64,000 nt of DNA from a phage, in sequence record NC_135729.1; one strand, written 5' to 3'. The position numbers and the translations under genes were made by a program. This document shows, piece by piece, positions 7,236 to 55,608 of the stretch. The notes beneath the pieces were generated by a model that saw only the letters and a program-made list of their open reading frames with translations, did not search any database and was not told the DNA's origin. The first letter of the stretch is position 1; every line of letters starts with the position of its first letter.

Positions 7236-8981
7236 TTAACGTTGTGCAATTACTACGTCTACGATATCACCAACACCACAATATGTTAATTGCAGCAAGG
7301 TAACACTATTAGCCTTGTTATTAATAACAGGCGTTGCCGACAGGATAGCATACTTATCGTGCAAAGTCACGTTGTGACCTACAGCATCCTGAATGACATA
7401 GATAACCGCAGTGAATGGATAAGGTTTATCTTCCGCTGATGTACCAGGCCATTGTCCTATTGTAAAATCCCCTTTCGCGTGGACAACATACATACTGGCC
7501 TGCCCGTTAGGTGTCCATGTCCCACTGGACGCGTCAACCTCCTCTAAATCAAAATCTACCTTTCCTGCGTGGAAAGTAGGGGCAGTAATGGTTTTACCCG
7601 CCTCAATTTCTTGAGAGGTGGTTATCTTGCCACTGGAGTTAATGCCATTACAAACAAAGTTGACATTAGAGAAGTCTGGCAGCCACCCAGTCACTGTGCC
7701 GGATATTTCAAGGTTGTGAAGGTAGGTGGTGCCCGTCCCTGCTGCGTTTAAACTAACATCTCCATTTACCTGCAAGTTTCTGGTAACGTTGCAGTTTTCA
7801 GAGTTTGCAGTTGTTGCAGTTAAAGTAGTGGTTGTCAGCTCGGTAATTACACCTTTGTTGGCTGTAAGCCCTTCCCCTTCAAAAGTTGCACGCTCATTGA
7901 CTCTTAGGGTATTCAGAGCTATGTTTTGGATAGAGGCTGTACCTCGAATAACTACAGATCCGCCAACTTCTAAATCACCATTTATTAATGCGTCCCCCGT
8001 GCTTTCAATATAGCTAGGGTAAATCATGGTGCCATCGACAGAGTAGGTTATCCCTGTAACAGTGCCTGTCACCTCAAGGTTCTTAACCCTGGTGGTTCCA
8101 TCTACCTGCAATGTCGGTTCTGTTGCTGCCTTCATGGCATTACCACGAATGTACACGTAGTCAAAAAAGTTATTACCTAGACCATCAAAATGCACATCGT
8201 TATTATTAGCCACTGGTTTCCCAGAAGTTATAGTGTCAGCTATAACCCTGTGGGTGGACACTTCATGAGGTTGCAGCTCTGTGCTTCTCCAGTCTGCATG
8301 CTTAGGATCACTCCACGCAAAAGTAAGTGTAGAAGTATTTGCCGTGAGGATTAGGTTCCTGAAGCGTGCAGTAGAATCTGCTCCATTAACAGGCCCATGT
8401 AAGGTGAGTGTGCCACCAACTATAGTGTTAGCAAGTTCTGTAAGACCTTTTACCACCAAAGACCCTACAGTAACTTTCATTCCCTCCATGGCTTCAAATA
8501 TGCTATCCACATAGTCAACAACAAACTCTGTGTTTGCTATAGACTCGGATTTGTCGTCCATTGGAGGCGTAGGTACTCGCGGGTCACCTTCGAACCTCGG
8601 ACTGTTAAGTTTTGCGTAGTATTTTGCCATTACTGCAGAATCGGTATATAATCTCCAGTTTGGAGATTGTGAAGGATCTGCTGGCATTCTAACCGGGTTA
8701 GATTTTGATGCTGCGGGAGCGTACCACCACTGAGGGCCTGTGTCCCCTTTAAACTCGTACAGCTGGTTAAAAACTGTTGTGGATGCACCATACGCCCAAG
8801 GGATTGGTGGCGTTTTAAAATAAAGGGTGTCAAGCATGGCTTTTCGTACCGTAGGGATGGTGGTCCCATCCTCTACGACAACTTCATCCACAGCGTTACC
8901 GTTGACAATCAGGTGCAAACGTTCAGAATCAACAATTACTTGATCTACCGCCTGCTCAAAGCTTGTCATGTCTTGCGCCAT
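7236..8981 (-). CDS. tail fiber protein (581 aa)
   Basis: Thr/Gly/Asn/Val-rich repetitive beta-strand composition typical of fibers; inside the fiber gene block. Confidence 0.6.
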   Translation of the reverse strand: MAQDMTSFEQAVDQVIVDSERLHLIVNGNAVDEVVVEDGTTIPTVRKAMLDTLYFKTPPIPWAYGASTTVFNQLYEFKGDTGPQWWYAPAASKSNPVRMPADPSQSPNWRLYTDSAVMAKYYAKLNSPRFEGDPRVPTPPMDDKSESIANTEFVVDYVDSIFEAMEGMKVTVGSLVVKGLTELANTIVGGTLTLHGPVNGADSTARFRNLILTANTSTLTFAWSDPKHADWRSTELQPHEVSTHRVIADTITSGKPVANNNDVHFDGLGNNFFDYVYIRGNAMKAATEPTLQVDGTTRVKNLEVTGTVTGITYSVDGTMIYPSYIESTGDALINGDLEVGGSVVIRGTASIQNIALNTLRVNERATFEGEGLTANKGVITELTTTTLTATTANSENCNVTRNLQVNGDVSLNAAGTGTTYLHNLEISGTVTGWLPDFSNVNFVCNGINSSGKITTSQEIEAGKTITAPTFHAGKVDFDLEEVDASSGTWTPNGQASMYVVHAKGDFTIGQWPGTSAEDKPYPFTAVIYVIQDAVGHNVTLHDKYAILSATPVINNKANSVTLLQLTYCGVGDIVDVVIAQR

Positions 8982-8990
8982 GATTTCTCC

Positions 8991-9257
8991 TTAAGCTTTT
9001 TGCTCTTCGTTTTTAACGTGGTCAGGGTGCTGGCAACCCCACCGGAGCGAGATGAATTTGCTAATAAGCTGGGGGCAAGCTACTGAAGGCGCGTATATCC
9101 ACGCATACCATTCAGGAAGCGTATCATTATACCCCATATGAATAAACACCCCAGTCATCACCGCCATGCCTATGTTCGACCATAGCTTAGATTGGGACAC
9201 TTTCGTAGGGTCATCAGATGCCGCAACCAGTCCCCATAAAAACTGAGTTAGTTTCAT
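8991..9257 (-). CDS. small membrane protein with two hydrophobic segments (possible holin, speculative)
   Basis: 88 aa with two hydrophobic stretches (WSNIGMAVMTGVFIHMGY, WYAWIYAPSVA) and a charged C-terminus; sits between fiber genes. Confidence 0.3.
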   Translation of the reverse strand: MKLTQFLWGLVAASDDPTKVSQSKLWSNIGMAVMTGVFIHMGYNDTLPEWYAWIYAPSVACPQLISKFISLRWGCQHPDHVKNEEQKA

Positions 9258-9268
9258 TTACCCTCTTT

Positions 9269-10315
9269 TTAAGCATAAGATATAGTGATCCATTGACCAT
9301 TTACAAGTTTTTGGATAGCACCTGTCCAGTAATCACCTTGATAAGGGTGTTTATAAGCGTAGTTACCAGAGCACATCACATGTCCAGGGTAGACTCTTGA
9401 CTCTCTATAGGTGGTTTTGAAACGGTTTGCTATCCTTACATCATCAACCCCTCTGCTGGGCATAGGGATAGTAAGGTTACCACTAACGTCTGCGCTGTTA
9501 CCATTTACCCTGCGGACAACGTTTCTTCCACCAACTGTTGCATATTGTCCCCTGACGGTTTCATCGTTACAATCAACTCTTCCACCTATTTGGGCGCTTC
9601 CACAGGATTGTTGTCCATTAACAGTGGCTCTTGGTATCGTGACCGCATTGGCATTTGCAGAGGAACTTTTTGCATCGTTGCATTCAAGATTTCCTTGGAT
9701 AGCCAGTCTTGCACGGTTGGCAGTTATAGCATTGAGCTTCATAGCCGAAAACACAGGATGCCCACCAGAAGGTTGAAATCTCCAACGGAACCCGTCTATT
9801 TGGTGAGAAGGATCATCAAGGTCTGTGCCGTCAGCACCACCGATGTTGTCCATAATCCAGAAGTCCATCGTCGTCTTGTCTGGAGTTATGGTGGTATATA
9901 TTGCCGCATTGTCTGTTGACGCAGATGCAAACTCGATTCTTTGAAGGCCTAAAGTTTGAGTCTGAGTCATTATGTCTCCAGACTTGTCAACATACAGATC
10001 GTCCATTTCTTCAGGCGAGTATACATTGAGAACTTGACGTGCAGCAGCTTTGTCTGGAACGTCTGCTAGATTATTAGTGACCCTTAAGAATCTATTATCC
10101 CATCCTGGGACAACATCTTCTGTTAAATGCTTTAACCACGCAGAAAGCATGTGAAGTTCAAAGTTAACAACTTCACATGCCACTCTTTGTGTCATATCCC
10201 AACCTTTCAATCTCTCTTCTTTTTTTGGTTGAGACTTATTCAACTCTCCCGTATTTTCAAGCACAACATCCTGATTGGCCCAAATATCAAGAGGGATAAC
10301 TGGTTTAGTCATCAC
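9269..10315 (-). CDS. tail fiber protein, paralog A (348 aa)
   Basis: Shares an N-terminal region and a near-identical C-terminal peptide (LQKLVNGQWITISYA versus LQKLVNGQWITVNYA) with the ORF at 11327..12367. Confidence 0.65.
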   Translation of the reverse strand: MMTKPVIPLDIWANQDVVLENTGELNKSQPKKEERLKGWDMTQRVACEVVNFELHMLSAWLKHLTEDVVPGWDNRFLRVTNNLADVPDKAAARQVLNVYSPEEMDDLYVDKSGDIMTQTQTLGLQRIEFASASTDNAAIYTTITPDKTTMDFWIMDNIGGADGTDLDDPSHQIDGFRWRFQPSGGHPVFSAMKLNAITANRARLAIQGNLECNDAKSSSANANAVTIPRATVNGQQSCGSAQIGGRVDCNDETVRGQYATVGGRNVVRRVNGNSADVSGNLTIPMPSRGVDDVRIANRFKTTYRESRVYPGHVMCSGNYAYKHPYQGDYWTGAIQKLVNGQWITISYA

Positions 10316-10401
10316 GTTCTCCTGAGAAAATTCCTTAGGACTATTTTAACACTTTAGGGAACAAAATGCAAGAACGGAGTCCTTTCCGTTCTGACCTTTG
10401 T

Positions 10402-10716
10402 TTACCTTTTACTATGCTCTACGAGCATGTGCAAAATCTTTTGTACATCGGCTCTGATGCCGGAGACATCTGTCCTGACATCCTGCTTAAGGTCGTTAAT
10501 ATCGGCCTCTAGCTTGCTTAACCGGGTCTCTATAACGGAATCAAGTTTATCTTTTGTAACCATACTGTTTTTCACTAAGATGAGGTCTTTCTCCAGCTCA
10601 TCCAACCTCTTGGAAATGCCTTTCCATTTGGTGTGCCACTGGTTGAAAGCCCATACACAGATCGGGACAACGGTACCCATGCAGATACCGTACAATGCCG
10701 CCAAATCCAACTCCAC
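10402..10716 (-). CDS. membrane-anchored coiled-coil protein (104 aa)
   Basis: N-terminal hydrophobic helix (LAALYGICMGTVVPICVWAF) followed by a heptad-like charged coiled coil; function unknown. Confidence 0.4.
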   Translation of the reverse strand: MELDLAALYGICMGTVVPICVWAFNQWHTKWKGISKRLDELEKDLILVKNSMVTKDKLDSVIETRLSKLEADINDLKQDVRTDVSGIRADVQKILHMLVEHSKR

Positions 10717-10727
10717 AACACCTCCTC

Positions 10728-11312
10728 TTAGAGGGTAGGTCGCTCCGGGAAGAAAATGTCAGGGGCTTTAGATGTATCTATTTCAAGAAGTTTTACCCTG
10801 TACATTTTCAAATCTCTGATGTTACGTTTCTGGTCATCAGTAAGATCATATTCAAGGTCAATCATGTCTTGATAGGCACCAATTCTAGCAGTAGCCCAAG
10901 CAAGTTCTGTCTCTATGACACCCTCTGCCTGTTGAACAAAGAATTCATTGTCTGTGACAAATTCATCACCAACTAAACGCAAAGCGTCGTGGTGAAGCAT
11001 AATGTTTTCTGGTACCTCTTCTTTTTTGGCGATAACCACACGAAGACCTGGAGCAGGCCATAAGGCATCAGGTTCTTCTGTAGATGTCTTAAGAATTCCC
11101 TTCTCGTCAACAAGTAGGAAGATACACCCTGGATTTTCTTGTCGTAATGTTCGTGACTGCACATACCAATCACCATCATCATTACGTAAAAAATACCCAG
11201 TGTATGCGGTGTAATCCTCAACCTCTTGAGGGGTCAGCTCCTTGGTTTCCTTGTTGGAGTGGTATTCGCCAGATCCCGGTTGGTAAAGTTTAAACTCTTG
11301 AAGTATTTTCAT
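10728..11312 (-). CDS. tail fiber assembly chaperone (Tfa-like)
   Basis: Immediately downstream of fiber paralog B in the transcript; acidic about-190-aa protein ending ...APDIFFPERP, as in lambda-type Tfa chaperones. Confidence 0.5.
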   Translation of the reverse strand: MKILQEFKLYQPGSGEYHSNKETKELTPQEVEDYTAYTGYFLRNDDGDWYVQSRTLRQENPGCIFLLVDEKGILKTSTEEPDALWPAPGLRVVIAKKEEVPENIMLHHDALRLVGDEFVTDNEFFVQQAEGVIETELAWATARIGAYQDMIDLEYDLTDDQKRNIRDLKMYRVKLLEIDTSKAPDIFFPERPTL

Positions 11313-11326
11313 GCTAGTCCTCCGAT

Positions 11327-12367
11327 CTATGCATAATTAACAGTGATCCATTGACCGTTTACAAGTTTTTGTAAAGGTCCTGCCCAGTAGGTTGAACCAC
11401 GCATCTCTTTTTTGTCACCGAAATGCCAGCCTGTGACAACGTAGCCGTTGCGAATTGGAGATTCGGAAACGCCGTCAACAAGTCTTGCACCGATTCTGAT
11501 GTCTTGCACACCTGTCTGCGGGATAGTGATTGTTACATCACCGTTACCGTTAGCCGTCACTCCATTCACAGAGCGCACCACATTTCTGTTACCGACAACA
11601 CAGTGCTGACTTCTTACAACCATACTGTCACAACTTGCACCTCCATTAACATACACTGACCCAGTCGTCAACTGACTAGCCACATTACAGTTGGTGAATG
11701 TTGCTGTATTGCTGATAGTAAGGTTATTGCACCTCATGTTATCGACAACTTCAACATTGCCTACCACTTTCAACAGCGCACGATTAGCCGTGATCGCGTT
11801 AAGGTACATCAAAGTGAACTCTGGATTAATATCCGGCTGAGTTGGCTGGAATCTCCAACGAAACGCATCTACTGTAGATGTACCACCATCATCAAACGAC
11901 CCTGTATTATCACTTAACCCAAAGTCGAGAGTTGTCTTATCTGGGCCAATAGTTGTCTCTATCCAAGCCTTATCTGTCTCGGCAGCTTTAAAGTTGATAC
12001 GTTGCAACCCCAAGGGGCCTGTCATTGTATCACCTGTAACTTTTACATACCTGGCGTCTGCCTCTTCCTTAGTGATAATCCCAAGGTTTCTACGGGCAAC
12101 AGGGATGTTCAAAAGATCGCTCAAGTTATTATCACGTACCAGATAACGGCCTTCTTGAGCGGGGATCTGCTCGTCAGCAATGTATTTTGCCCAAGTTCCG
12201 AGCATATTGAAAATATAGTTAAGTTCTTCACATGAGGGCTTTTGACCAAGATCCCAACCTTTTCTCCACAAATCATCAATCGGGCGTAGCCTGTTCTGTC
12301 TGTGGGTGTTAGGCAGAACCTGATCCTCCTCTGCCCAAATCTCTAATGGAAAACTAGGTTTTGACAT
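11327..12367 (-). CDS. tail fiber protein, paralog B (346 aa)
   Basis: Paralog of 9269..10315 with conserved termini and a divergent central region; followed by the Tfa-like gene. Confidence 0.65.
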   Translation of the reverse strand: MSKPSFPLEIWAEEDQVLPNTHRQNRLRPIDDLWRKGWDLGQKPSCEELNYIFNMLGTWAKYIADEQIPAQEGRYLVRDNNLSDLLNIPVARRNLGIITKEEADARYVKVTGDTMTGPLGLQRINFKAAETDKAWIETTIGPDKTTLDFGLSDNTGSFDDGGTSTVDAFRWRFQPTQPDINPEFTLMYLNAITANRALLKVVGNVEVVDNMRCNNLTISNTATFTNCNVASQLTTGSVYVNGGASCDSMVVRSQHCVVGNRNVVRSVNGVTANGNGDVTITIPQTGVQDIRIGARLVDGVSESPIRNGYVVTGWHFGDKKEMRGSTYWAGPLQKLVNGQWITVNYA

Positions 12368-12379
12368 TTTATCTCCTGA

Positions 12380-14452
12380 TTATGAGAAGTCTGGCGGGAC
12401 AACATCCTCTACATACCCTTTCAGAGCAACCTGCCCCATATGAAGCACGGTAGAATCTCTAGCGGTAACAGTGATGCTGTCAGACATTACTTGCGGGTAT
12501 GCCCACACATACTGTTTTACCTCAGGGTATCTATACTCTATAGTTGCCATGTTTCCGCAAATACATCTCCATAAAAATTCTTGGTAATTCCTGGTTGGGT
12601 CGTAGCCATATACCGGAGCAAGCTCTTTACTAGGAACGAACCCTGCAAGGTATTGTATTTCAGACGGTTGCCAACCTAACTTAACGATAGGTATGTTTAC
12701 AGACTCTTTTGCCTTTTCAATACCTCCCTGCATCACCCAATCGTAGCACTCGGTGCAGAAGAAATCAAGAGCACCTGCTTCCTTTTTATATTGGTCAGCA
12801 AGGTTCAGCTTTTGCGTAAGCTCGGTTTCCATGATGGTTGGGAAAAACAGCAAAGCTGTCATCTGAGCTGATGCAGCGTGTGCCTTTATTGCCTTTGAAA
12901 TAGCCGCAATACGAGCGCCAAGCTTACCACGACAAAATGCTACATACTTGTCGTAAACACCGCCAGTTTTAGGATCGTCAATAGTCCCAATATCTAATGC
13001 ATACTCACCTGTCTCATCATAAAACGCCTGCTTTGTAGGGTAATCATAAATACAAGGTCTACGAGTATCGGTATTGTACCACCACCACGGTTCACCAACC
13101 TGCATAATCACTGGCAGGTTGTTTCTCATAGCGGCTGATGCAAAATTCTTAAATACTGCAGTAAGGAAATTCATACCCTCTTCAATGGTTGGAGACAGGA
13201 GGTAGCTACAGGGTGTATACCCTGTTTTAGCGTAGTTATCGTTCCAGTCTCTTTGGGTCCATTCCAACGGGCAGGCATCGCTGAAAAGCTCAAAACTTAC
13301 AGATTGCATAACGTCGAAGTTATGTCGTTTGGCATTGTACATAAAATCATCATGCCATTTATAAGCTGCAGCGTTTAGCGCCCCTGTTCTGTTTATAGAC
13401 CATTGGGTTCCTGACCATGTGTAGTCATAATAATGACTCATACCAACATAATGGTTTATGGTTCCGGTATAGCCCAGACGCTTGATATTGTTCAACACCC
13501 TTAAAGGAGATACGTTCCACATATCGTCATATGCGGTGCAGATCCCAACGTCGTGCTCTTTAACCTGAATATTGTTAAGTTGCATCATTTTCCAGCCTGT
13601 GTCTGGCTGAAGCAGATCTAGGCGCAACTCACACTCTACATTTTCCGTTCTCGGGTCTGTGCTATTACTTACCCAGTCTTTAGGCATGAGTGGTATTAAA
13701 ATCCTTCTCACCTGCCGAGGATCAACACCCATCATGTTGTTGTTCTGGTCCATCCCGACGCAGTCCTCAAAATCAATATGAATTTCTGCAACATTCTTAT
13801 CCTCTGAGATGCTGACAGCATATTGAGCTAAAGGAACATAGATGATTGTGCCATCAACAAGGTCTACAGTCATAATCATCTTTTCAGGAGTGGAGAAGTT
13901 GCTGGCGTTGGTTATTGACATTCTGAACCAGAGCTTGGTGTTTCTCATCTCATAGTGATCATCAAACCCAATGCCGAAATGGTCATACTTGTCAACTGTT
14001 TCCCAAATACACCCAGCCATACCTCCATATGTTCTTGACACTAAACGGTTAATACAACAGTTGTTATCTGCAACAATACAGGTACTTTCAGTCTGCTGAG
14101 TAGTTGTAACCCAATACCTTGGGTGAAACATTCTCTCCTCAACAGTATCCCAAGATATCCTGTCAAGATTCTCATCTGAAACTATTGTACATTTCGCCCT
14201 TTGTGTTCCAATCATTACCCCTTGGGATTTTGATGAAAACTCCATAAAGAAGCTTCTTGGCAACCTGTTGGGTAATTTGTCAACAATTTCCACGGGGATC
14301 TCAATACTTGTTGCCCCAACTGGGATAGTTATATCGCCCTCAACATGATTATAATCCCTACCAGGAACGGCAGTATCCTGAACTGTTCGGTAATGAAACT
14401 GTGCAGCCATTGTAGAGTAATCACGGTAAGGTTTAAAAACAGCTGTTGCCAT
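12380..14452 (-). CDS. tailspike-like protein with N-terminal Calx-beta-like segment (690 aa)
   Basis: N-terminal VPGRDYNHVEGDITIPVGATSIEIPVEIVD resembles a Calx-beta motif; large Trp/Tyr-rich C-terminal domain consistent with a glycan-binding or hydrolysing spike. Confidence 0.5.
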   Translation of the reverse strand: MATAVFKPYRDYSTMAAQFHYRTVQDTAVPGRDYNHVEGDITIPVGATSIEIPVEIVDKLPNRLPRSFFMEFSSKSQGVMIGTQRAKCTIVSDENLDRISWDTVEERMFHPRYWVTTTQQTESTCIVADNNCCINRLVSRTYGGMAGCIWETVDKYDHFGIGFDDHYEMRNTKLWFRMSITNASNFSTPEKMIMTVDLVDGTIIYVPLAQYAVSISEDKNVAEIHIDFEDCVGMDQNNNMMGVDPRQVRRILIPLMPKDWVSNSTDPRTENVECELRLDLLQPDTGWKMMQLNNIQVKEHDVGICTAYDDMWNVSPLRVLNNIKRLGYTGTINHYVGMSHYYDYTWSGTQWSINRTGALNAAAYKWHDDFMYNAKRHNFDVMQSVSFELFSDACPLEWTQRDWNDNYAKTGYTPCSYLLSPTIEEGMNFLTAVFKNFASAAMRNNLPVIMQVGEPWWWYNTDTRRPCIYDYPTKQAFYDETGEYALDIGTIDDPKTGGVYDKYVAFCRGKLGARIAAISKAIKAHAASAQMTALLFFPTIMETELTQKLNLADQYKKEAGALDFFCTECYDWVMQGGIEKAKESVNIPIVKLGWQPSEIQYLAGFVPSKELAPVYGYDPTRNYQEFLWRCICGNMATIEYRYPEVKQYVWAYPQVMSDSITVTARDSTVLHMGQVALKGYVEDVVPPDFS

Positions 14453-48744: not shown

Positions 48745-48821
48745 TGGTCTCCACGGAGTGATTCGAACACTCGACCTCCTGATCCCAAATCAGGCGCTCT
48801 ACCAAGCTGAGCTACGCGGAG
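48745..48821 (-). tRNA. tRNA-Pro (anticodon UGG)
   Basis: Manual fold: acceptor CTCCGCG/CGTGGAG, U8, D-loop AGCTTGGTA, anticodon stem CCTGA/TCAGG with loop TTTGGGA, T-arm GAGTG-TTCGAAT-CACTC, CCA encoded. Confidence 0.8.
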
Positions 48822-48832
48822 TATCTACTATT

Positions 48833-48907
48833 TGGTGGCCCTGGGTGGAATTGAACCACCGTCTGGCGATTATGAGTCGCTTGCTTGAACCTTCCAGCTA
48901 CAGGGCC
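48833..48907 (-). tRNA. tRNA-Met (anticodon CAU; elongator or lysidine-Ile2 not distinguishable)
   Basis: Manual fold: acceptor GGCCCTG/CAGGGCC, anticodon loop CTCATAA, T-arm GGTGG-TTCAATT-CCACC, CCA encoded. Confidence 0.7.
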
Positions 48908-48908
48908 A

Positions 48909-48984
48909 TGGTGCTGATGGCAGGACTTGAACCCGCAACCTATTGATTACAAATCAATTGCACTACCAATTGTGCTACATCAGC
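48909..48984 (-). tRNA. tRNA-Thr (anticodon UGU)
   Basis: Manual fold: acceptor GCTGATG/CATCAGC, D-arm GCAC-AATTGGTA-GTGC, anticodon stem ATTGA/TCAAT with loop TTTGTAA, T-arm GCGGG-TTCAAGT-CCTGC, CCA encoded; 1 nt from tRNA-Met. Confidence 0.8.
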
Positions 48985-48989
48985 AAAAA

Positions 48990-49088
48990 GGTGCTAGGCG
49001 GTGGAATCGAACCACCTATGTATTCAACGACTACCTCGTCTATTTTCAGGATTAAAAATCCTCGCCCTTGCCAAAGGGCTTACCTAGC
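48990..49088 (-). ncRNA. atypical 99-nt tRNA-like element (anticodon uncertain)
   Basis: Good acceptor stem (GCTAGGT/GCCTAGC), D-arm (GCCC-TTTGGCAA-GGGC) and canonical T-arm (GGTGG-TTCGATT-CCACC), but a 4-bp anticodon-type hairpin (AGGA-TTTTTAA-TCCT) and about 31 nt before the T-arm; 3' end ACC. Confidence 0.4.
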
Positions 49089-49186
49089 TCAATATGTTGA
49101 CCATGTTGCTAGTCGGCGATGACGACTGTAACATTTGATAATCCGGTTCTGCTTCCGGCTTTCGCTTAATTGCAAGGTCAACAATG

Positions 49187-49277
49187 TGGCGGAGAGTAAT
49201 GGAATCGAACCATCATCGAGTCATCCTCAACGGGACGGTTTTCAAGACCGCTTGAGCACCATTGCTCCCTACCCTCC
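49187..49277 (-). tRNA. tRNA-Ser (anticodon UGA), type II
   Basis: Manual fold: acceptor GGAGGGT/ACTCTCC, anticodon stem GCGGT/ACCGT with loop CTTGAAA, long variable arm, T-loop TTCGATT, CCA encoded. Confidence 0.75.
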
Positions 49278-49391
49278 TTTATAAATTATACTGATAATGA
49301 CACTGATTTTCGAGCAGTTAGTGACTAGTATAAACGACGATAAATATCAATGCCATTATCTGTATTATTTATGCATCTAAAAAATATAAAT

Positions 49392-49478
49392 TTGGTGGGG
49401 AGTGGTGGAGTCGAACCACCCGAGTCGCAATGACAATAGATTTACAGTCTACACCGCTACCTCTACGGGATAACTCCC
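49392..49478 (-). tRNA. tRNA-Tyr (anticodon GUA), type II
   Basis: Manual fold: acceptor GGGGAGT/ACTCCCC, anticodon stem with loop CTGTAAA, long variable arm, T-arm GGTGG-TTCGACT-CCACC, CCA encoded. Confidence 0.75.
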
Positions 49479-49482
49479 CAAT

Positions 49483-49557
49483 TTGGCACCCCGTACTGGA
49501 CTCGAACCAGTGTCAACGGCTTAGAAGGCCGCTGCTTTATCCACTAAGCTAACAGGG
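49483..49557 (-). tRNA. tRNA-Arg (anticodon UCU)
   Basis: Manual fold: acceptor GCCCTGT/ACGGGGT (two G-U pairs), D-arm GCTT-AGTGGATA-AAGC, anticodon stem GCGGC/GCCGT with loop CTTCTAA, T-loop TTCGAGT, CCA encoded. Confidence 0.75.
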
Positions 49558-49654
49558 CACTGGGTGGCTTTCTTTTACACCTTAGCCGCCAGAAAAGGTG
49601 GGAGACCATGTTTACAATATTACACTGTTAAGCAAAGTTTGTCAAGAAAATATT

Positions 49655-52482: not shown

Positions 52483-53037
52483 TTACTCCCCGCTGTCAAT
52501 AGCAAGACTCATTGCAATACGGTATGCCTCTTCTAATGGTAAGAGTCTCCCCCACACATCCCAACCGACATCAAACTGCCTGCCAAACAACTGCTGTGTG
52601 GTTCCGTGAGCATGACCGAACAGTTGGACTGATCCGTGAGGCTTTCTGTTCCACTTTGCAAACTGGTAATGGCTCATACAGATCAAATTCTTGTTGTGGC
52701 GAAGCTCGTAATAATCTACAACCTCATGACCGAACTCTTTCATAATTCTGACAGTCGTCCTTGTGTCATGGTTACCACGAACAAGAATAATATGTCCGTT
52801 CAACATATTTAGAACATCTGGGAGCAATTTGTTGATATTCTTATCATTAGTGCACGCAATATCTCCCAAGTGAAACACAGTGTCTGCAGGTGACACAACA
52901 GAGTTCCACTCGGCGATGATTCCCGCATTCATACTGTCAAGATTGTGATCATACTGAGATCTGTGTTTTTGACATGAATCAAACTCCATGACCCGCTGGT
53001 GGAGAAAGTGTGTGTCGCTTGTTACAAAGTATTTCAT
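52483..53037 (-). CDS. calcineurin-like metallophosphoesterase (candidate polynucleotide 2',3'/3'-phosphatase)
   Basis: Start moved to the ATG at 53037 (MKYFVTSDTHF...; GAGGA upstream); motifs SDTHF, GDIACTND, GNHD, GHAHG match the metallophosphoesterase signature. Confidence 0.6.
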   Translation of the reverse strand: MKYFVTSDTHFLHQRVMEFDSCQKHRSQYDHNLDSMNAGIIAEWNSVVSPADTVFHLGDIACTNDKNINKLLPDVLNMLNGHIILVRGNHDTRTTVRIMKEFGHEVVDYYELRHNKNLICMSHYQFAKWNRKPHGSVQLFGHAHGTTQQLFGRQFDVGWDVWGRLLPLEEAYRIAMSLAIDSGE

Positions 53038-53044
53038 ACATTCC

Positions 53045-53455
53045 TCATTTAAGTTTAATGCAGTTTTTAAGCTGGCGTTCCATACGATCCACAACCTTGT
53101 CTGGAACATCATGAATGCTTTTATTACCGTGGCGGTTTTCAACCACGATCACGGTATAACTATACCCGTGACTGATTGCCATGTCAACATATTCCTGCAC
53201 ATGTTTTTCTTTTGTAAACGTATTACTTACCACGATACGGTCGTATCCCGTACGCATCATATCTTCTACGTTATCTTTGCACCATTTTGCTGCGAGTGTT
53301 ACTTTACTTGCATCCCAGTTGTAATTGCCGTCATCGTCATACCAGAACATGTCGTTCTCAAAATGTGGATACAGACCTTCTAAAGATAGCGCATTTGCCA
53401 GTGTTGATTTGCCAGACCCTGGCAGACCACGCACGATATATAGCATTTTAGACAT
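53045..53455 (-). CDS. P-loop polynucleotide-kinase-like protein (T4 Pnk kinase-domain-like)
   Basis: Start moved to the ATG at 53455 (GGAGG 7 nt upstream); Walker A GLPGSGKST and downstream VVSNT resemble the T4 Pnk kinase domain. Confidence 0.55.
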   Translation of the reverse strand: MSKMLYIVRGLPGSGKSTLANALSLEGLYPHFENDMFWYDDDGNYNWDASKVTLAAKWCKDNVEDMMRTGYDRIVVSNTFTKEKHVQEYVDMAISHGYSYTVIVVENRHGNKSIHDVPDKVVDRMERQLKNCIKLK

Positions 53456-53483
53456 AGCAACCCTCCGTTTTAATTTTAATGAT

Positions 53484-53512
53484 AGTATACCTAACTGTTT
53501 TGTTAATTTCAA
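53484..53512 (-). promoter_or_regulatory. sigma70-type promoter for the leftward kinase / phosphatase / regulator operon
   Basis: Minus-strand -35 TTGAAA (plus 53507..53512), 17-bp spacer, -10 TATACT (plus 53484..53489), then GGAGG and the ATG at 53455. Confidence 0.45.
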
Positions 53513-53515
53513 GTG

Positions 53516-53545
53516 TTGACACTAGGTTATTTGTGTGGCATGATA
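53516..53545 (+). promoter_or_regulatory. sigma70-type promoter for the rightward RNA ligase / Sir2 operon (divergent from the previous one)
   Basis: Consensus -35 TTGACA at 53516..53521 with a weaker -10 (CATGAT/ATGATA) 17-18 bp downstream; -35 elements of the two promoters lie back to back. Confidence 0.4.
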
Positions 53546-53573
53546 GACTGACAAAATGACAAATGAGGAACGT

Positions 53574-54491
53574 ATGATGAAGTATTTTAATGCAGATGAC
53601 CTAGTAGACAAAGGTCTTGTAACCAGTCGGTATTATCCAGATCTTGGATTAAAGATCTATAAATATGCCAGAAAAGTATTCTACAACAATCTGTGGCATT
53701 TGTCTCCGCGTTTACTGGAGTGCCGAGGTATTGTTGTTGGCAATGAGGGGAATGTTGTGGCATGGCCTTTCACAAAAGTATTCAACTTAGGAGAAAACTC
53801 CACCAACCTACCGGACAGTAAACTTGTTACTGCGGTAGAGAAAAAGAACGGATTCCTCGGTGTGGTATCATCTCATAAAGGTGAACTATTGTTCTCAACA
53901 ACCGGGTCTCTTGATTCTCCATATTGTAACCTTGCAAAGGAAACCATCCAAGAGCAATGTGGTAATTTAGATCTTATCAAGAAGGTTATGGGCAATGAAA
54001 ACATGACATTCATGTTTGAAATTTGTCACCCTTCAGATCCGCATATTGTTCAGGAAGATCATGGCGCATATTTGATAGGTTGCAGATATAATGATTCTGG
54101 AATAATGCTACCAGAAGCAGCTTTAGATGGGATTGCCAAATACCTTGGTGCAAAACGTCCTCACACTGTGCGTGAAATTCCGTTCAGCTATGCAAAAGAA
54201 TTAGCTGCAGAAACAAGAGGTGAAGGGTATATGATTCGTAAGCCTTACTACCCTTATGATCTGCAGCTGAAGATCAAGTCTCCATACTATCTGGCACGGA
54301 AGGCCGTAATGAGGGGTAAAGCTTGGAAGATTTGGGATGATGATATCTTTAAACGTGTTGACGAAGAGTTTTACGGCATGGTAAACTTCATTCGTAGCAA
54401 TTACACAGAGGATGTGTGGAACTGCCTCCTGGAGCAGGAACGCCGTGAGATACTTGATTACTATTTCCACAACGAGAACTATATGCAATGA
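53574..54491 (+). CDS. RNA ligase, Rnl2-like nucleotidyltransferase
   Basis: Motif I-like EKKNGF (T4 Rnl2 EKIHGTN), motif IV EGYMIRKP (T4 Rnl2 EGYVLKP), motif V LKIK; start placed at the ATG preceded by GAGGAA (track ORF starts at 53556). Confidence 0.6.
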   Translation: MMKYFNADDLVDKGLVTSRYYPDLGLKIYKYARKVFYNNLWHLSPRLLECRGIVVGNEGNVVAWPFTKVFNLGENSTNLPDSKLVTAVEKKNGFLGVVSSHKGELLFSTTGSLDSPYCNLAKETIQEQCGNLDLIKKVMGNENMTFMFEICHPSDPHIVQEDHGAYLIGCRYNDSGIMLPEAALDGIAKYLGAKRPHTVREIPFSYAKELAAETRGEGYMIRKPYYPYDLQLKIKSPYYLARKAVMRGKAWKIWDDDIFKRVDEEFYGMVNFIRSNYTEDVWNCLLEQERREILDYYFHNENYMQ

Positions 54492-54838
54492 AGAAGTTGA
54501 TTGTGTGGCTAGATGACTTAAGAGATCCGTCAAATTACGGGCTCCCAGACGCTGTTTGGCTGAAGAATTCCTCCGAGTTTATGGATTTTATTAACGATAA
54601 GGGAAAGCTCTACAGACGCGTTTCTGAGTGGCATATGGACAACGACCTAGGAGAAGTATTCGAAGGATACGATTGCCTATCCATGTTGGAGGAAAAATTT
54701 GTATTCGGTAAGCCTCCCGTGGTTGACAACGTGAAGATTTTCGTACATACTTCTAATCCATCAGCGGCTCGTAAATTCATGCTTGCAGCTGACTCGTTTA
54801 AAAAGTTTGGAATAGAGATTAAACAAAACATCTACTGA
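54488..54838 (+). CDS. hypothetical protein (116 aa), coupled to the ligase gene
   Basis: ATGA start/stop overlap with the upstream gene; conserved-looking acidic motifs (WLDDLRDP, SEWHMDNDLG) but no recognisable family. Confidence 0.45.
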   Translation: MKKLIVWLDDLRDPSNYGLPDAVWLKNSSEFMDFINDKGKLYRRVSEWHMDNDLGEVFEGYDCLSMLEEKFVFGKPPVVDNVKIFVHTSNPSAARKFMLAADSFKKFGIEIKQNIY

Positions 54839-54846
54839 GGGCACTT

Positions 54847-55608
54847 ATGCGACGACTGATTATTATCTCCGGTGCTGGTTTGAGCGCTGAATCTGGTATT
54901 CCCACTTTCCGATCTGGTAGTACTGCAATGTGGGAGAATTTCAGCATAGATGAGGTGTGCAACATCCACACCTTCGCCAAGAACTACTATAAGGTGCATG
55001 ACTTTTACAATGCACGTCGTGTAGCTCTGGGCAGTGTTGATCCTAACCTTGCACATCTCCGGATCGCTGAGTGGTATTCCCGCTGGTCTGGTCGTGTGAT
55101 CAACCTGACCACCAATGTAGATGATTTGCTGGAGCGTGCTGGTGTAAAACATGAAGATATTTTACATGTCCACGGGTATTTGCCTGAAATCACCTATGAA
55201 GATACTGAAGGTAATGATGTAATTAAAAATATAGGGTACACGGAGGTAGATACAGGCAAGTATACCTGGGTTAAGCCCAATGTAGTGTTCTTCGGTGAGG
55301 TTGCTCCTAAGTATACAGACATGTATGACCTGTTGACATCTCTTACCAGCAATGATATGGTGATCCTGGTAGGTTGTTCTAACACAGTTATTAATTTTAA
55401 CTGGGAATTGTTTCCTGCTACTTGTAAAGGCACAAAACTGCTGATTGTAAACAAGTATGATTCGCAGAGTGCAGATGGAAGTGGCATTTCACGTAGCGAC
55501 CTTTATCAATATGAGGATCGCGGGATCCCTGTATGGTTTAACGGTGCTGTTGACGCTTTCTCTGATAAAGCATTTATTGAAACTGTAGAAAACTTTATGG
55601 AACTGTAA
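54847..55608 (+). CDS. Sir2-family (sirtuin-like) NAD-dependent protein lacking the zinc-ribbon module
   Basis: Sirtuin signature SGAGLSAESGIPTFR, NAD-pocket TTNVDDLLERAG, catalytic HG in LHVHG, VVFFGE and LVGCSNTV motifs; no CxxC...CxxC after the HG. Confidence 0.8.
   Translation: MRRLIIISGAGLSAESGIPTFRSGSTAMWENFSIDEVCNIHTFAKNYYKVHDFYNARRVALGSVDPNLAHLRIAEWYSRWSGRVINLTTNVDDLLERAGVKHEDILHVHGYLPEITYEDTEGNDVIKNIGYTEVDTGKYTWVKPNVVFFGEVAPKYTDMYDLLTSLTSNDMVILVGCSNTVINFNWELFPATCKGTKLLIVNKYDSQSADGSGISRSDLYQYEDRGIPVWFNGAVDAFSDKAFIETVENFMEL

What the first reader, a model, noticed from the sequence alone, without database searches (positions are those of the whole stretch)
9269..12367. Tandem paralogous tail fiber genes with conserved termini and divergent cores
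The fibers at 9269..10315 and 11327..12367 share an N-terminal region and a near-identical C-terminal peptide (about 30 nt of near-identical DNA, GTGATCCATTGACC(A/G)TTTACAAGTTTTT) but differ in the central receptor-facing part. Only paralog B is followed by a Tfa-like chaperone; paralog A is followed by an 88-aa membrane-type protein, and a 104-aa membrane/coiled-coil protein lies between the modules. This looks like a duplicated host-range cassette.
Basis: seen in the sequence. Interest (0 to 1): 0.5.

Follow-up and report, generated by a model that had tools for sequence, protein, structure and literature searches.

The report
Two paralogous rV5-type short tail fibres
The window comes from an rV5-like E. 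coli phage, and the two genes are its already-described pair of paralogous short tail fibres (rV5 gp30 and gp33) with one shared assembly chaperone, so the finding is real but ordinary and known.

Summary
The window is a Vequintavirus (rV5-like myovirus), 99% identical to sequenced isolates. The two ORFs are rV5 gp33 (B, 11327-12367) and gp30 (A, 9269-10312), both on the minus strand. They are 43% identical over their full length. Kropinski 2013 and the BASEL paper (Maffei 2021) already describe them as paralogous short tail fibres with one Tfa chaperone.

The ~30-nt near-identical 3' stretch is real. "Conserved termini, divergent core" is not: identity is 43% in both body and tip, and the receptor end is the C-terminal Mu-S-like tip, not the centre.

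New here:
- B is the ortholog of the single fibre found in related genera.
- A is an old duplicate sitting where relatives carry a 157-aa membrane-protein gene.
- The 104-aa and 88-aa genes are ancestral neighbours, not partners specific to A.
- A has its own putative late promoter and evolves faster than B.
- The shared C-terminal peptide is a family-wide terminal motif.
- The 3' ends show concerted evolution. Synonymous changes are shared by both copies in a divergent species, and the whole tip is homogenised in an uncultured sister lineage.
- 115 isolates show no cassette swapping.

Verdict: already known, low interest.

The parts
11327..12367 (-). Paralog B, 346 aa, equivalent to rV5 gp33. 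It is the ancestral short tail fibre, orthologous to the single fibre of Avunavirus, Seunavirus-like, Phapecoctavirus and phi92-like phages.
   Evidence: 98.6-100% identical to the listed Vequintavirus genes, annotated 'short tail fiber protein' in BASEL records. 48.6% identical to the Av-05 fibre, against 38% for A. Same syntenic slot after the gp34-like gene. The B clade plus single-copy fibres has bootstrap 89.
10728..11312 (-). Tail fibre assembly chaperone, 194 aa, equivalent to rV5 gp32, of the lambda Tfa / Mu U type. It is the only one detectable in these genomes.
   Evidence: PF02413 Caudo_TAP E=9e-12, 45.7 bits against a 22.1 cut-off. phrog_136 E=2e-36. One place per genome in the tblastn search.
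10402..10716 (-). 104-aa protein with an N-terminal transmembrane segment and a coiled coil (rV5 gp31). It is an ancestral neighbour of the fibre-Tfa pair; its function is unknown.
   Evidence: phrog_5345. Hydrophobic window at residues 1-25. Homologs follow Tfa in all single-copy relatives.
10371..10392 (-). Stem-loop resembling an intrinsic terminator, directly after the 104-aa gene.
   Evidence: Terminator-like hit. RNA fold of the 90-nt gap gives -22.7 kcal/mol, z=-2.4.
10342..10371 (-). Promoter-like element TTGCAT-N17-TAAAATA upstream of A. It corresponds to Kropinski's putative late promoter P030.
   Evidence: Unique in the window. Both hexamers and the 17-nt spacing are conserved in L007 and L009 although the surrounding sequence differs. 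Listed as P030 in rV5 Table S4.
9269..10312 (-). Paralog A, 347 aa, equivalent to rV5 gp30. It is the derived, faster-evolving duplicate.
   Evidence: 95-100% identical in 115 isolates. It occupies the slot of a 157-aa gene with four transmembrane segments in relatives. A orthologs are 78% and 49% identical in L007 and L009, where B is 87% and 73%.
8991..9257 (-). 88-aa small hydrophobic protein (rV5 gp29). It is an ancestral neighbour, not specific to A.
   Evidence: phrog_1322. 51-56% identical homologs lie before the ~584-aa fibre gene in single-copy relatives.
9285..9313 (-). 3' near-identical motif, copy in A. It encodes QKLVNGQWIT.
11343..11371 (-). 3' near-identical motif, copy in B. 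It encodes QKLVNGQWIT.
9272..9466 (-). Mu-S-like C-terminal tip domain of A (aa 283-347). Its loops are derived: it has lost the TGW..G(N/D)KKE(L/M)RG signature.
   Evidence: Alignment. No closer relative outside Vequintavirus, best 45%. Tip is 92% identical and dN is 0.055 between the window and L007, the most constrained part of A.
11330..11527 (-). Mu-S-like C-terminal tip domain of B (aa 281-346). It has the family-typical signature.
   Evidence: phmmer match of residues 286-343 to Mu S 440-501. Profile hit. 54-59% identical to the tips of Phapecoctavirus and of ~53-kb Salmonella myoviruses.
12038..12367 (-). N-terminal baseplate-docking region of B (aa 1-110). It carries the family-typical RPIDDLW.KGWD motif.
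   Evidence: Matches residues 1-111 of the phiTE short tail fibre, PDB 9cuy, E=1.4e-19. In phiTE, residues 3-92 bind the wedge.
9983..10312 (-). N-terminal region of A (aa 1-110), with an altered docking motif (QPKKEERLKGWD).
   Evidence: A departs at 14 family-conserved positions within residues 9-62 where B does not. The change is shared by all A-clade proteins.

Best explanation
Identity (shown). The locus is the short-tail-fibre locus of a Vequintavirus. B (gp33) is the ancestral fibre. It has an N-terminal baseplate-docking domain of the Vequintavirinae/phiTE type, a beta-rich shaft, and a C-terminal tip homologous to phage Mu fibre protein S. The gene after it is a Mu-U/lambda-Tfa-type chaperone (gp32).

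History (shown). A (gp30) is an old tandem duplicate. It arose before Vequintavirus split from an uncultured sister lineage. It sits where related genera carry a 157-aa membrane-protein gene.

Transcription (predicted from sequence). A starts its own unit: a stem-loop, then the putative late promoter P030, then gp30, gp29 and gp28.

Assembly (inferred). The single Tfa folds both fibres from their C-terminal ends. The shared terminal motif (P/A)(L/I)QKLVNGQWIT is a structural element conserved from Mu to phiTE. Both copies must keep it to stay compatible with that one chaperone.

Concerted evolution (shown at sequence level; mechanism inferred). Episodic gene conversion between the two 3' ends keeps the motif near-identical in DNA.

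Function (inferred). A and B assemble as separate homotrimers on the baseplate and bind the LPS core as terminal receptors. A has altered tip loops and an altered docking motif. It probably recognises a different core structure and may dock at a different site.
For: Identity:
- The region is 99% identical to rV5-type genomes, and BASEL records annotate two short tail fibres plus a chaperone.
- The literature describes the paralog pair.

Homology:
- The family profile matches Mu S (5yvq, 9ki1) at E=3e-12 and the phiTE short tail fibre (9cuy) at E=4e-34.
- The AF2 model of A matches 5yvq_A by Foldseek at E=2.4e-8.
- Tfa matches PF02413.

Orthology and synteny.

Rates: A diverges faster than B. 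Both tips have the lowest dN in the window-L007 comparison, 0.055 and 0.053, against 0.22 and 0.12 in the shafts.

Concerted evolution:
- Only 36% of codons match at identical residues overall, but 8 of 9 match in the terminal motif.
- Orthologs in other genera use other codons there.
- In L007, three synonymous changes (CTT>CTG, GTA>GTC, CAA>CAG) are present in both copies. Synonymous sites between the window and L007, and between A and B, are otherwise saturated (pS about 0.8).
- In L009 the tips of A and B are 82% identical in protein (84% nt identity over codons 316-345), against 45% protein identity for the bodies. The tip tree groups L009_A with L009_B.

One Tfa gene per genome. The promoter is conserved in three lineages and was predicted for rV5. 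Cryo-EM of the close relative Bas54 shows a Mu-like short-tail-fibre density on the baseplate.
Against: - Virion incorporation of both paralogs is not verified. The rV5 main text says gp30, gp32 and gp33 were detected by MS, but the supplementary MS table as held lists 19 loci. I could not find 30, 32 or 33 in parts 1, 3 and 4, and peptide searches found nothing.
- Cryo-EM at 7-9.5 Å shows one kind of short-tail-fibre density and cannot tell A from B.
- The codon-clustering test on the window alone is weak (permutation p=0.08).
- The motif differs at 2-4 positions in L012 and L017 and at about 8 in the sister lineage. Any conversion is therefore episodic.
- That one Tfa serves both fibres rests only on the absence of a second detectable Tfa.
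- Different receptor specificities are inferred from sequence only. BASEL found that all Vequintavirinae need the same waaC/waaG-dependent core.
- The monomer AF2 models are of moderate quality (pLDDT 70-74). The B model gave no fold match.
Confidence: 0.62

Rival explanations
1. Functional redundancy or dosage. Both paralogs bind the same LPS-core receptor (the heptose-linked glucose of the outer core). The duplicate only adds copies or robustness, as BASEL implies.
For: All tested Vequintavirinae fail on waaC and waaG mutants, and neither paralog shows allelic variation. Both keep all 10 family-conserved tip columns. In the sister lineage the two tips are nearly the same, so two identical tips are evidently viable.
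Against: In the window lineage the tips are only 43% identical. Each is nevertheless conserved at 91-92% across a species pair whose synonymous sites are saturated. That pattern fits two distinct, separately constrained surfaces. A has lost the TGW..GNKKELRG signature shared by B, Av-05, PVP-SE1-like phages, Phapecoctavirus and Mu.
Confidence: 0.25
2. One reading: a duplicated, swappable host-range cassette. Conserved ends would act as recombination anchors for exchanging a variable receptor-binding core between phages.
For: Conserved 3' DNA motif. The family is modular at larger scale: N-terminal, shaft and tip segments have different relatives. Tip exchange between the paralogs occurred in one lineage.
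Against: No allelic variants in 115 isolates. There is no conserved 5' DNA anchor; nucleotide identity over codons 1-15 is 0.67 and drops to 0.38 after that. The variable part is not central. The flanking small genes are ancestral. No inverted repeats were found and both genes lie on the same strand; no neighbouring gene is annotated as an invertase.
Confidence: 0.08
3. A and B co-assemble into mixed (hetero)trimers nucleated at the shared C-terminal strand, giving one fibre type with composite tips.
For: The terminal motif is identical and there is one chaperone. Only one kind of short-tail-fibre density was seen by cryo-EM.
Against: A and B differ by several indels in the shaft (2, 4, 2 and 6 residues and more), which would break the register of a trimeric beta-structure. 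They have separate promoters. Their N-terminal docking motifs differ.
Confidence: 0.05

Closest known systems
rV5 gp30 / gp33 with gp32 (Kropinski et al. [quoted passage not shown] 2021, PMC8594841, S5D Fig)
   Same: These are the same genes: 95-100% protein identity, same order, same sizes (347, 104, 194 and 346 aa), and the same reported 42-43% identity between the paralogs.
   Different: Nothing material. This analysis adds the polarity of the duplication, the displaced 157-aa gene, and evidence of concerted evolution at the 3' ends.
Phage Mu tail fibre S with chaperone U (PDB 5YVQ; North et al. 2019), and its alternative S/S' tips switched by G-segment inversion
   Same: Homologous shaft and C-terminal tip, including the terminal motif (Mu: PVQKNINGTWYNV). 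A Tfa-type chaperone gene lies directly downstream. LPS core glucose is the receptor. Each genome carries two alternative tips.
   Different: Mu expresses one tip at a time by DNA inversion, and each tip has its own chaperone (U or U'). Here two complete genes lie in direct orientation, each with its own N-terminus. Both appear to be late-expressed, and there is one chaperone and no invertase. The N-terminal docking domain is of the Vequintavirinae/phiTE type, not the Mu type.
phi92 fibre III (gp147) and the single short tail fibres of Phapecoctavirus, Avunavirus and PVP-SE1-like phages
   Same: Orthologs of B in the same locus (wedge, baseplate protein, fibre, Tfa, small transmembrane coiled-coil protein). 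phi92 gp147 was fitted as six downward-pointing trimers on the wedge protein gp145 and is proposed to mediate stable adsorption and trigger contraction.
   Different: These phages have one copy only, and the slot of A holds other small genes.
T4 gp12 short tail fibre
   Same: Functional analogue: a baseplate-bound trimer binding the LPS core as terminal receptor. Kropinski reported HHpred similarity.
   Different: No match was detected here by phmmer or profile search. T4 gp12 uses a different chaperone (gp57A) and is folded under the baseplate.

Membership tests
Vequintavirus short tail fibre pair (rV5 gp30/gp33) | Near-identity to the annotated genes and the same gene order gp34-gp33-gp32-gp31-gp30-gp29-gp28 | tested here: met
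   99% nucleotide identity over 3.6 kb to rV5_ev146, Mangalyan and CarlMeissner. The annotations and sizes match.
Mu S-type tail fibre | C-terminal tip and shaft homologous to Mu gpS | tested here: met
   Family profile against 5yvq_A/9ki1: E=3e-12 over profile positions 76-356. B alone: residues 286-343 against Mu S 440-501. Foldseek of the A model against 5yvq_A: E=2.4e-8, probability 1.0.
Mu S-type tail fibre | Cognate Tfa/U-type chaperone gene immediately downstream | tested here: met
   Met for B: the 194-aa PF02413 protein lies 14 nt downstream. Not met for A: its downstream gene is an 88-aa hydrophobic protein with no Tfa similarity.
Mu S-type tail fibre | Homotrimer that binds LPS core sugars | not testable with these tools
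   Only monomer models were possible. Receptor genetics exist for the relative LL12 and the BASEL phages, but not per paralog.
Caudo_TAP (lambda Tfa / Mu U) chaperones | Pfam PF02413 above the gathering threshold, with a conserved C-terminal helical half and a variable N-terminal half | tested here: met
   45.7 bits against a 22.1 cut-off, matching residues 121-192. The N-terminal part diverges faster than the C-terminal part in every comparison.
T4 gp12-type short tail fibre | Sequence or fold similarity to gp12 (PDB 1PDI/1H6W) | tested here: inconclusive
   No gp12 chain appears among the PDB hits of A, B or the family profile at E<=1. Kropinski reported HHpred probabilities of 97-98%. HHpred could not be run here.
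Switchable or swappable host-range cassettes (Mu G / P1 C segments, T-even gp37-38 mosaics) | Inverted repeats with an invertase, or allelic replacement of the variable part among close relatives | tested here: not met
   Only direct repeats were found and both genes lie on the same strand. No neighbouring gene is annotated as an invertase. A is 95-100% identical in 115 isolates and B is 98.6-100% in the rows listed.

The most novel reading that the evidence does not exclude
One Tfa chaperone services two diverged fibres. Recurrent gene conversion of the fibre 3' ends is the mechanism that keeps both compatible with it: a short tract in Vequintavirus, the whole tip in the uncultured sister lineage. 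Paralog A would use its altered N-terminal motif to dock at a baseplate site different from B's. It would read a different LPS core type, giving the phage two terminal-receptor specificities at once.
Probability: 0.3. Interest if true: 0.45.

Novelty: already known. Interest (0 to 1): 0.22.

Why it matters
Vequintaviruses are among the most commonly isolated broad-host-range coliphages and are candidates for therapy. Which protein reads the terminal LPS receptor, and whether the phage carries two such readers, bears on predicting host range and engineering it. The paralog pair has been published since 2013, so the finding adds nothing categorical. The open questions remain experimental. Where does the second fibre sit on the baseplate? 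Does it recognise a different core type? Does one chaperone fold both? The concerted-evolution signal found here is a small, testable addition.

Tried and rejected
- Pfam gave no family for A or B. Rfam found nothing in 8000-13000.
- Foldseek with the monomer model of B gave only noise, as expected for one chain of a trimeric fibre.
- The Tfa protein has no sequence match in the PDB.
- I looked for duplication scars by aligning the 89-nt spacer upstream of A with the region upstream of B. Only the ribosome-binding site matched, no better than shuffles.
- The 157-aa gene of relatives is not a remnant of A; BLASTP finds no similarity.
- Codon clustering in the window alone was not significant (p=0.08). 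The conversion argument rests on the cross-lineage comparison instead.
- I searched for a donor of the unusual tip of A outside Vequintavirus. None exceeds 45% identity.
- I tried to verify the published MS detection of gp30, gp32 and gp33 and could not find them in the held supplement.
- Other clades of the family (L021, L022, L023) were checked for independent duplications. All are single-copy.
- Pfam searches for the 104-aa, 88-aa and 157-aa proteins gave only sub-threshold coiled-coil noise.
Full report
**What the window is.** A 3.6-kb query around the finding matches 116 phage records. Of these, 113 cover at least 80% of the query at 90-99% identity, and nearly all are Escherichia Vequintavirus (rV5-like) genomes. 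In the BASEL isolate CarlMeissner the genes are annotated as follows, in transcription order on the minus strand:
- lateral tail fibre (690 aa)
- short tail fibre (346 aa)
- tail fibre chaperone (194 aa)
- hypothetical protein (104 aa)
- short tail fibre (347 aa)
- hypothetical protein (88 aa)
- lateral tail fibre (581 aa)
- intimin-domain fibre (about 1,875 aa)

In rV5 numbering these are gp34 down to gp27.

**Checking the observation.**
- The two ORFs exist as stated.
- For A, the ribosome-binding site AGGAG lies 6 nt before the ATG at 10312 and only 3 nt before the GTG at 10315. The annotated 347-aa product is therefore the better call.
- BLASTP gives 43% identity over the full length, E=1e-94.
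- The near-identical 3' stretch is real. The 29-mer with one degenerate position occurs exactly twice in the window, at 9285-9313 and 11343-11371, with none expected by chance.
- The picture of conserved termini around a divergent core does not hold. Identity is 43% in residues 1-280 and 43% in the last ~65 residues.
- The best-conserved blocks are internal. The most divergent stretches are about aa 205-250 and 293-330.

**What the proteins are.**
- Neither protein matches a Pfam family. Both match phrog_4465, 'tail fiber protein', end to end.
- Against PDB sequences, B matches the N-terminal 111 residues of a 554-aa 'Short tail fiber' (9cuy/9mjn) at E=1.4e-19. From its length, its match to the Ig-domain fibre family phrog_12846 and the phiTE paper, I take this chain to be the Pectobacterium phage phiTE fibre.
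- B also matches the C-terminal tip of Mu tail fibre protein S (5yvq).
- A 71-sequence family profile strengthens these matches to E=4e-34 for the phiTE fibre and 3e-12 for Mu S. The Mu alignment runs from the shaft to the last residue.
- The AF2 monomer model of A (pLDDT 69.6) finds 5yvq_A as its only significant Foldseek hit, E=2.4e-8. The B model (pLDDT 73.5) found nothing. Monomer models of trimeric fibres are poor search queries.
- In phiTE, fibre residues 3-92 form the joint that binds the baseplate wedge.
- In phi92, the single homolog gp147 is fibre III: six downward-pointing trimers on the wedge protein.
- By homology, the N-terminus docks to the baseplate and the C-terminal ~65 residues form the distal, receptor-facing tip.
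- The 194-aa protein is a Caudo_TAP chaperone above Pfam's cut-off.

**Already published.**
- Kropinski et al. 2013 reported gp30 and gp33 as similar-sized fibre proteins with 42.3% identity and suggested that two LPS chemotypes may be recognised.
- Maffei et al. 2021 state that Vequintavirinae sensu stricto encode two paralogous short tail fibres and a chaperone. They describe these as homologous to the single locus of phi92-like phages and ultimately to Mu S and U. They report no considerable allelic variation and an LPS-core terminal receptor that depends on waaC and waaG.
- RBPseg (2025) located a Mu-like short-tail-fibre density on the baseplates of the two Vequintavirinae phages it imaged, Bas49 and Bas54, at 7-9.5 Å. 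It could place only three of nine annotated fibres.

**Polarity of the duplication (new here).**
- Single-copy relatives share one arrangement. These are Av-05, a PVP-SE1-like Salmonella phage, TH18 and two metagenomic contigs.
- That arrangement is: fibre, Tfa, a 104-aa transmembrane coiled-coil protein, a 157-aa protein with four transmembrane segments (PF26221), an 87-89-aa hydrophobic protein, and a ~584-aa fibre.
- In the window, A sits exactly where the 157-aa gene sits in those relatives. The two are unrelated in sequence.
- The 104-aa and 88-aa genes are therefore ancestral neighbours, not parts of a duplicated module.
- B is closer than A to the single-copy fibres: 48.6% against 38% to Av-05. 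B groups with them in the tree (bootstrap 89), and the A-type proteins form their own clade (bootstrap 72).
- Two further lineages carry both copies. One is a divergent Vequintavirus species (L007/L008), with A at 78% and B at 87% identity to the window.
- The other is an uncultured lineage with ~117-140-kb contigs (L009, L013, L015, L020), with A at 49% and B at 73%. No isolate in the phage collection belongs to it.
- The duplication is therefore old and A evolves faster than B.
- Three other clades of the family are single-copy.

**Separate expression.**
- The only sizeable intergenic gap in the cluster is the 89 nt before A.
- It holds a stem-loop followed by TTGCAT-N17-TAAAATA.
- Both hexamers and the spacing are conserved in L007 and L009, although the surrounding sequence differs.
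- The element is unique in the window. It coincides with the putative late promoter P030 in the rV5 paper, which also lists a terminator after gene 28.
- A, gp29 and gp28 therefore probably form their own late transcription unit. This is predicted, not shown.

**The shared C-terminal peptide.**
- At the protein level this is a family motif. Mu has PVQKNINGTWYNV, the phiTE fibre has PIQKKVNGVWVTI, Av-05 has PLQYLVNGQWVTV, and Phapecoctavirus has PLQYYVNGGWVTV.
- At the DNA level it is unusual. Across all identical residues only 36% of codons are the same, but 8 of 9 degenerate codons match in this motif.
- My own binomial arithmetic gives P of about 0.0016 for that stretch. A position-agnostic permutation gives only p=0.08.
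- Orthologs in other genera use different codons there.
- The stronger evidence is comparative. In L007 both copies carry CTG, GTC and CAG where both window copies carry CTT, GTA and CAA.
- Synonymous sites are otherwise saturated between these genomes and between the paralogs, with pS about 0.8.
- In CarlMeissner the two copies are identical over 30 nt. In L012 and L017 they differ at 2 and 4 positions, and in the sister lineage at about 8.
- In the sister lineage the whole tip is homogenised instead. The tips are 82% identical in protein between A and B (84% nucleotide identity over codons 316-345), against 45% protein identity for the bodies. The tip tree places L009_A with L009_B, while the body tree places it with the window's A.
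- I read this as episodic gene conversion between the 3' ends, not as a fixed DNA element.

**What constrains the two fibres.**
- Between the window and L007, the tips are the most conserved parts of both proteins. A has 92% tip identity against 75% for the body, and B has 91% against 86%. dN is 0.055 and 0.053 in the tips against 0.22 and 0.12 in the shafts.
- Yet the two tips are only 43% identical to each other. A has replaced the TGW..G(N/D)KKE(L/M)RG signature kept by B, the single-copy fibres and Mu.
- No donor for A's tip exists outside Vequintavirus.
- This pattern fits two separately maintained binding surfaces better than plain redundancy. It is still inference from sequence.
- A also departs from 14 family-conserved positions in residues 9-62, including RPIDDLW becoming QPKKEER. 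All A-clade proteins share this change. It hints at an altered docking interface.

**One chaperone.**
- tblastn with the Tfa protein finds one place per genome in Vequintavirus records (249 places in 247 records).
- In Mu-type chaperones the variable N-terminal domain binds the fibre tip and the conserved C-terminal helices trimerise.
- The same gradient is seen here: the N-terminal part diverges faster than the C-terminal part.
- That gp32 folds both fibres is the simplest reading, but it is untested.

**Caveat on virion evidence.**
- The rV5 main text lists gp30, gp32 and gp33 among proteins detected by MS.
- The supplementary MS table as held lists 19 loci. Loci 30, 32 and 33 are absent from the parts I read, and searches for their peptides found nothing.
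- The gene table marks gp34 and gp41 as having MS evidence, but not gp30 or gp33.
- I did not read part 2 of the MS table. By count it can hold only one further locus.

**Verdict.** Its structural reading is partly wrong, and the 'swappable cassette' interpretation is not supported. The feature is a known pair of paralogous short tail fibres. The additions made here are the polarity of the duplication, the displaced membrane-protein gene, the faster evolution of A, and concerted evolution of the 3' ends. These are incremental.

Noticed in passing
L003 6949-7422 (Av-05); also L004 6997-7470, L005 7020-7493, L010 7958-8431; the equivalent slot in the window is 9269-10312: Related genera carry a conserved 157-aa gene with four transmembrane segments (Pfam PF26221, Phage_phiTE_239) between the 104-aa and 88-aa genes. 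In Vequintavirus it is replaced by paralog A. This string of small hydrophobic proteins (104, 157 and 88 aa; only the first two show clear transmembrane windows in my scan) sits inside a tail-fibre operon and has no assigned function.
   Followed up: partly
rV5 paper PMC3606486, Additional file 5, against the main text: The text says gp30, gp32 and gp33 (and others) were detected by virion MS. The supplementary DTASelect table as held lists 19 loci, and these three do not appear in the parts read. Their expected tryptic peptides are also absent.
   Followed up: partly
L009 3913-7065; L013, L015, L020 (IMG/VR and Logan contigs of 117-140 kb): This uncultured sister lineage of Vequintavirus also has two fibre genes, but their tips are nearly identical and both end in QTL. 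Its Tfa is 44% identical to the window's, and its homolog of the 88-aa protein has a 30-residue acidic, Tyr-rich tail (118 aa). The best match to its A-type fibre in the isolate collection is only 49%.
   Followed up: partly
window 48745-49558: A cluster of seven tRNA calls lies on the minus strand. One is a 99-nt tRNA-like call at 48990-49088 with an undetermined identity and a four-base anticodon call (atcc).
   Followed up: no
search results: About 20 GenBank records named 'Campylobacter phage' (MG0656xx, host C. jejuni, unannotated) match this E. coli Vequintavirus region; the seven listed in the near-DNA search are 98.7-98.9% identical. The host label looks doubtful.
   Followed up: no
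window 12380-14452: The 690-aa protein upstream of B has Calx-beta and N4-type 'non-contractile tail sheath protein' domains (PF23844, PF23845, E=4e-80). This is the component that recent papers link to recognition of the ECA/NGR glycan.
   Followed up: no
window, about 53000-55000: GC skew flips from negative to positive near 54 kb. This is consistent with a switch in transcription direction between the structural module and the next module.
   Followed up: no
L002 10248-10281 (Murica); the equivalent lies inside the 5' part of paralog A in the window: The Murica RefSeq record annotates a 'terminator' inside the coding sequence of the gp30 homolog. The stem-loop actually found here lies upstream of the gene, at 10371-10392.
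   Followed up: no
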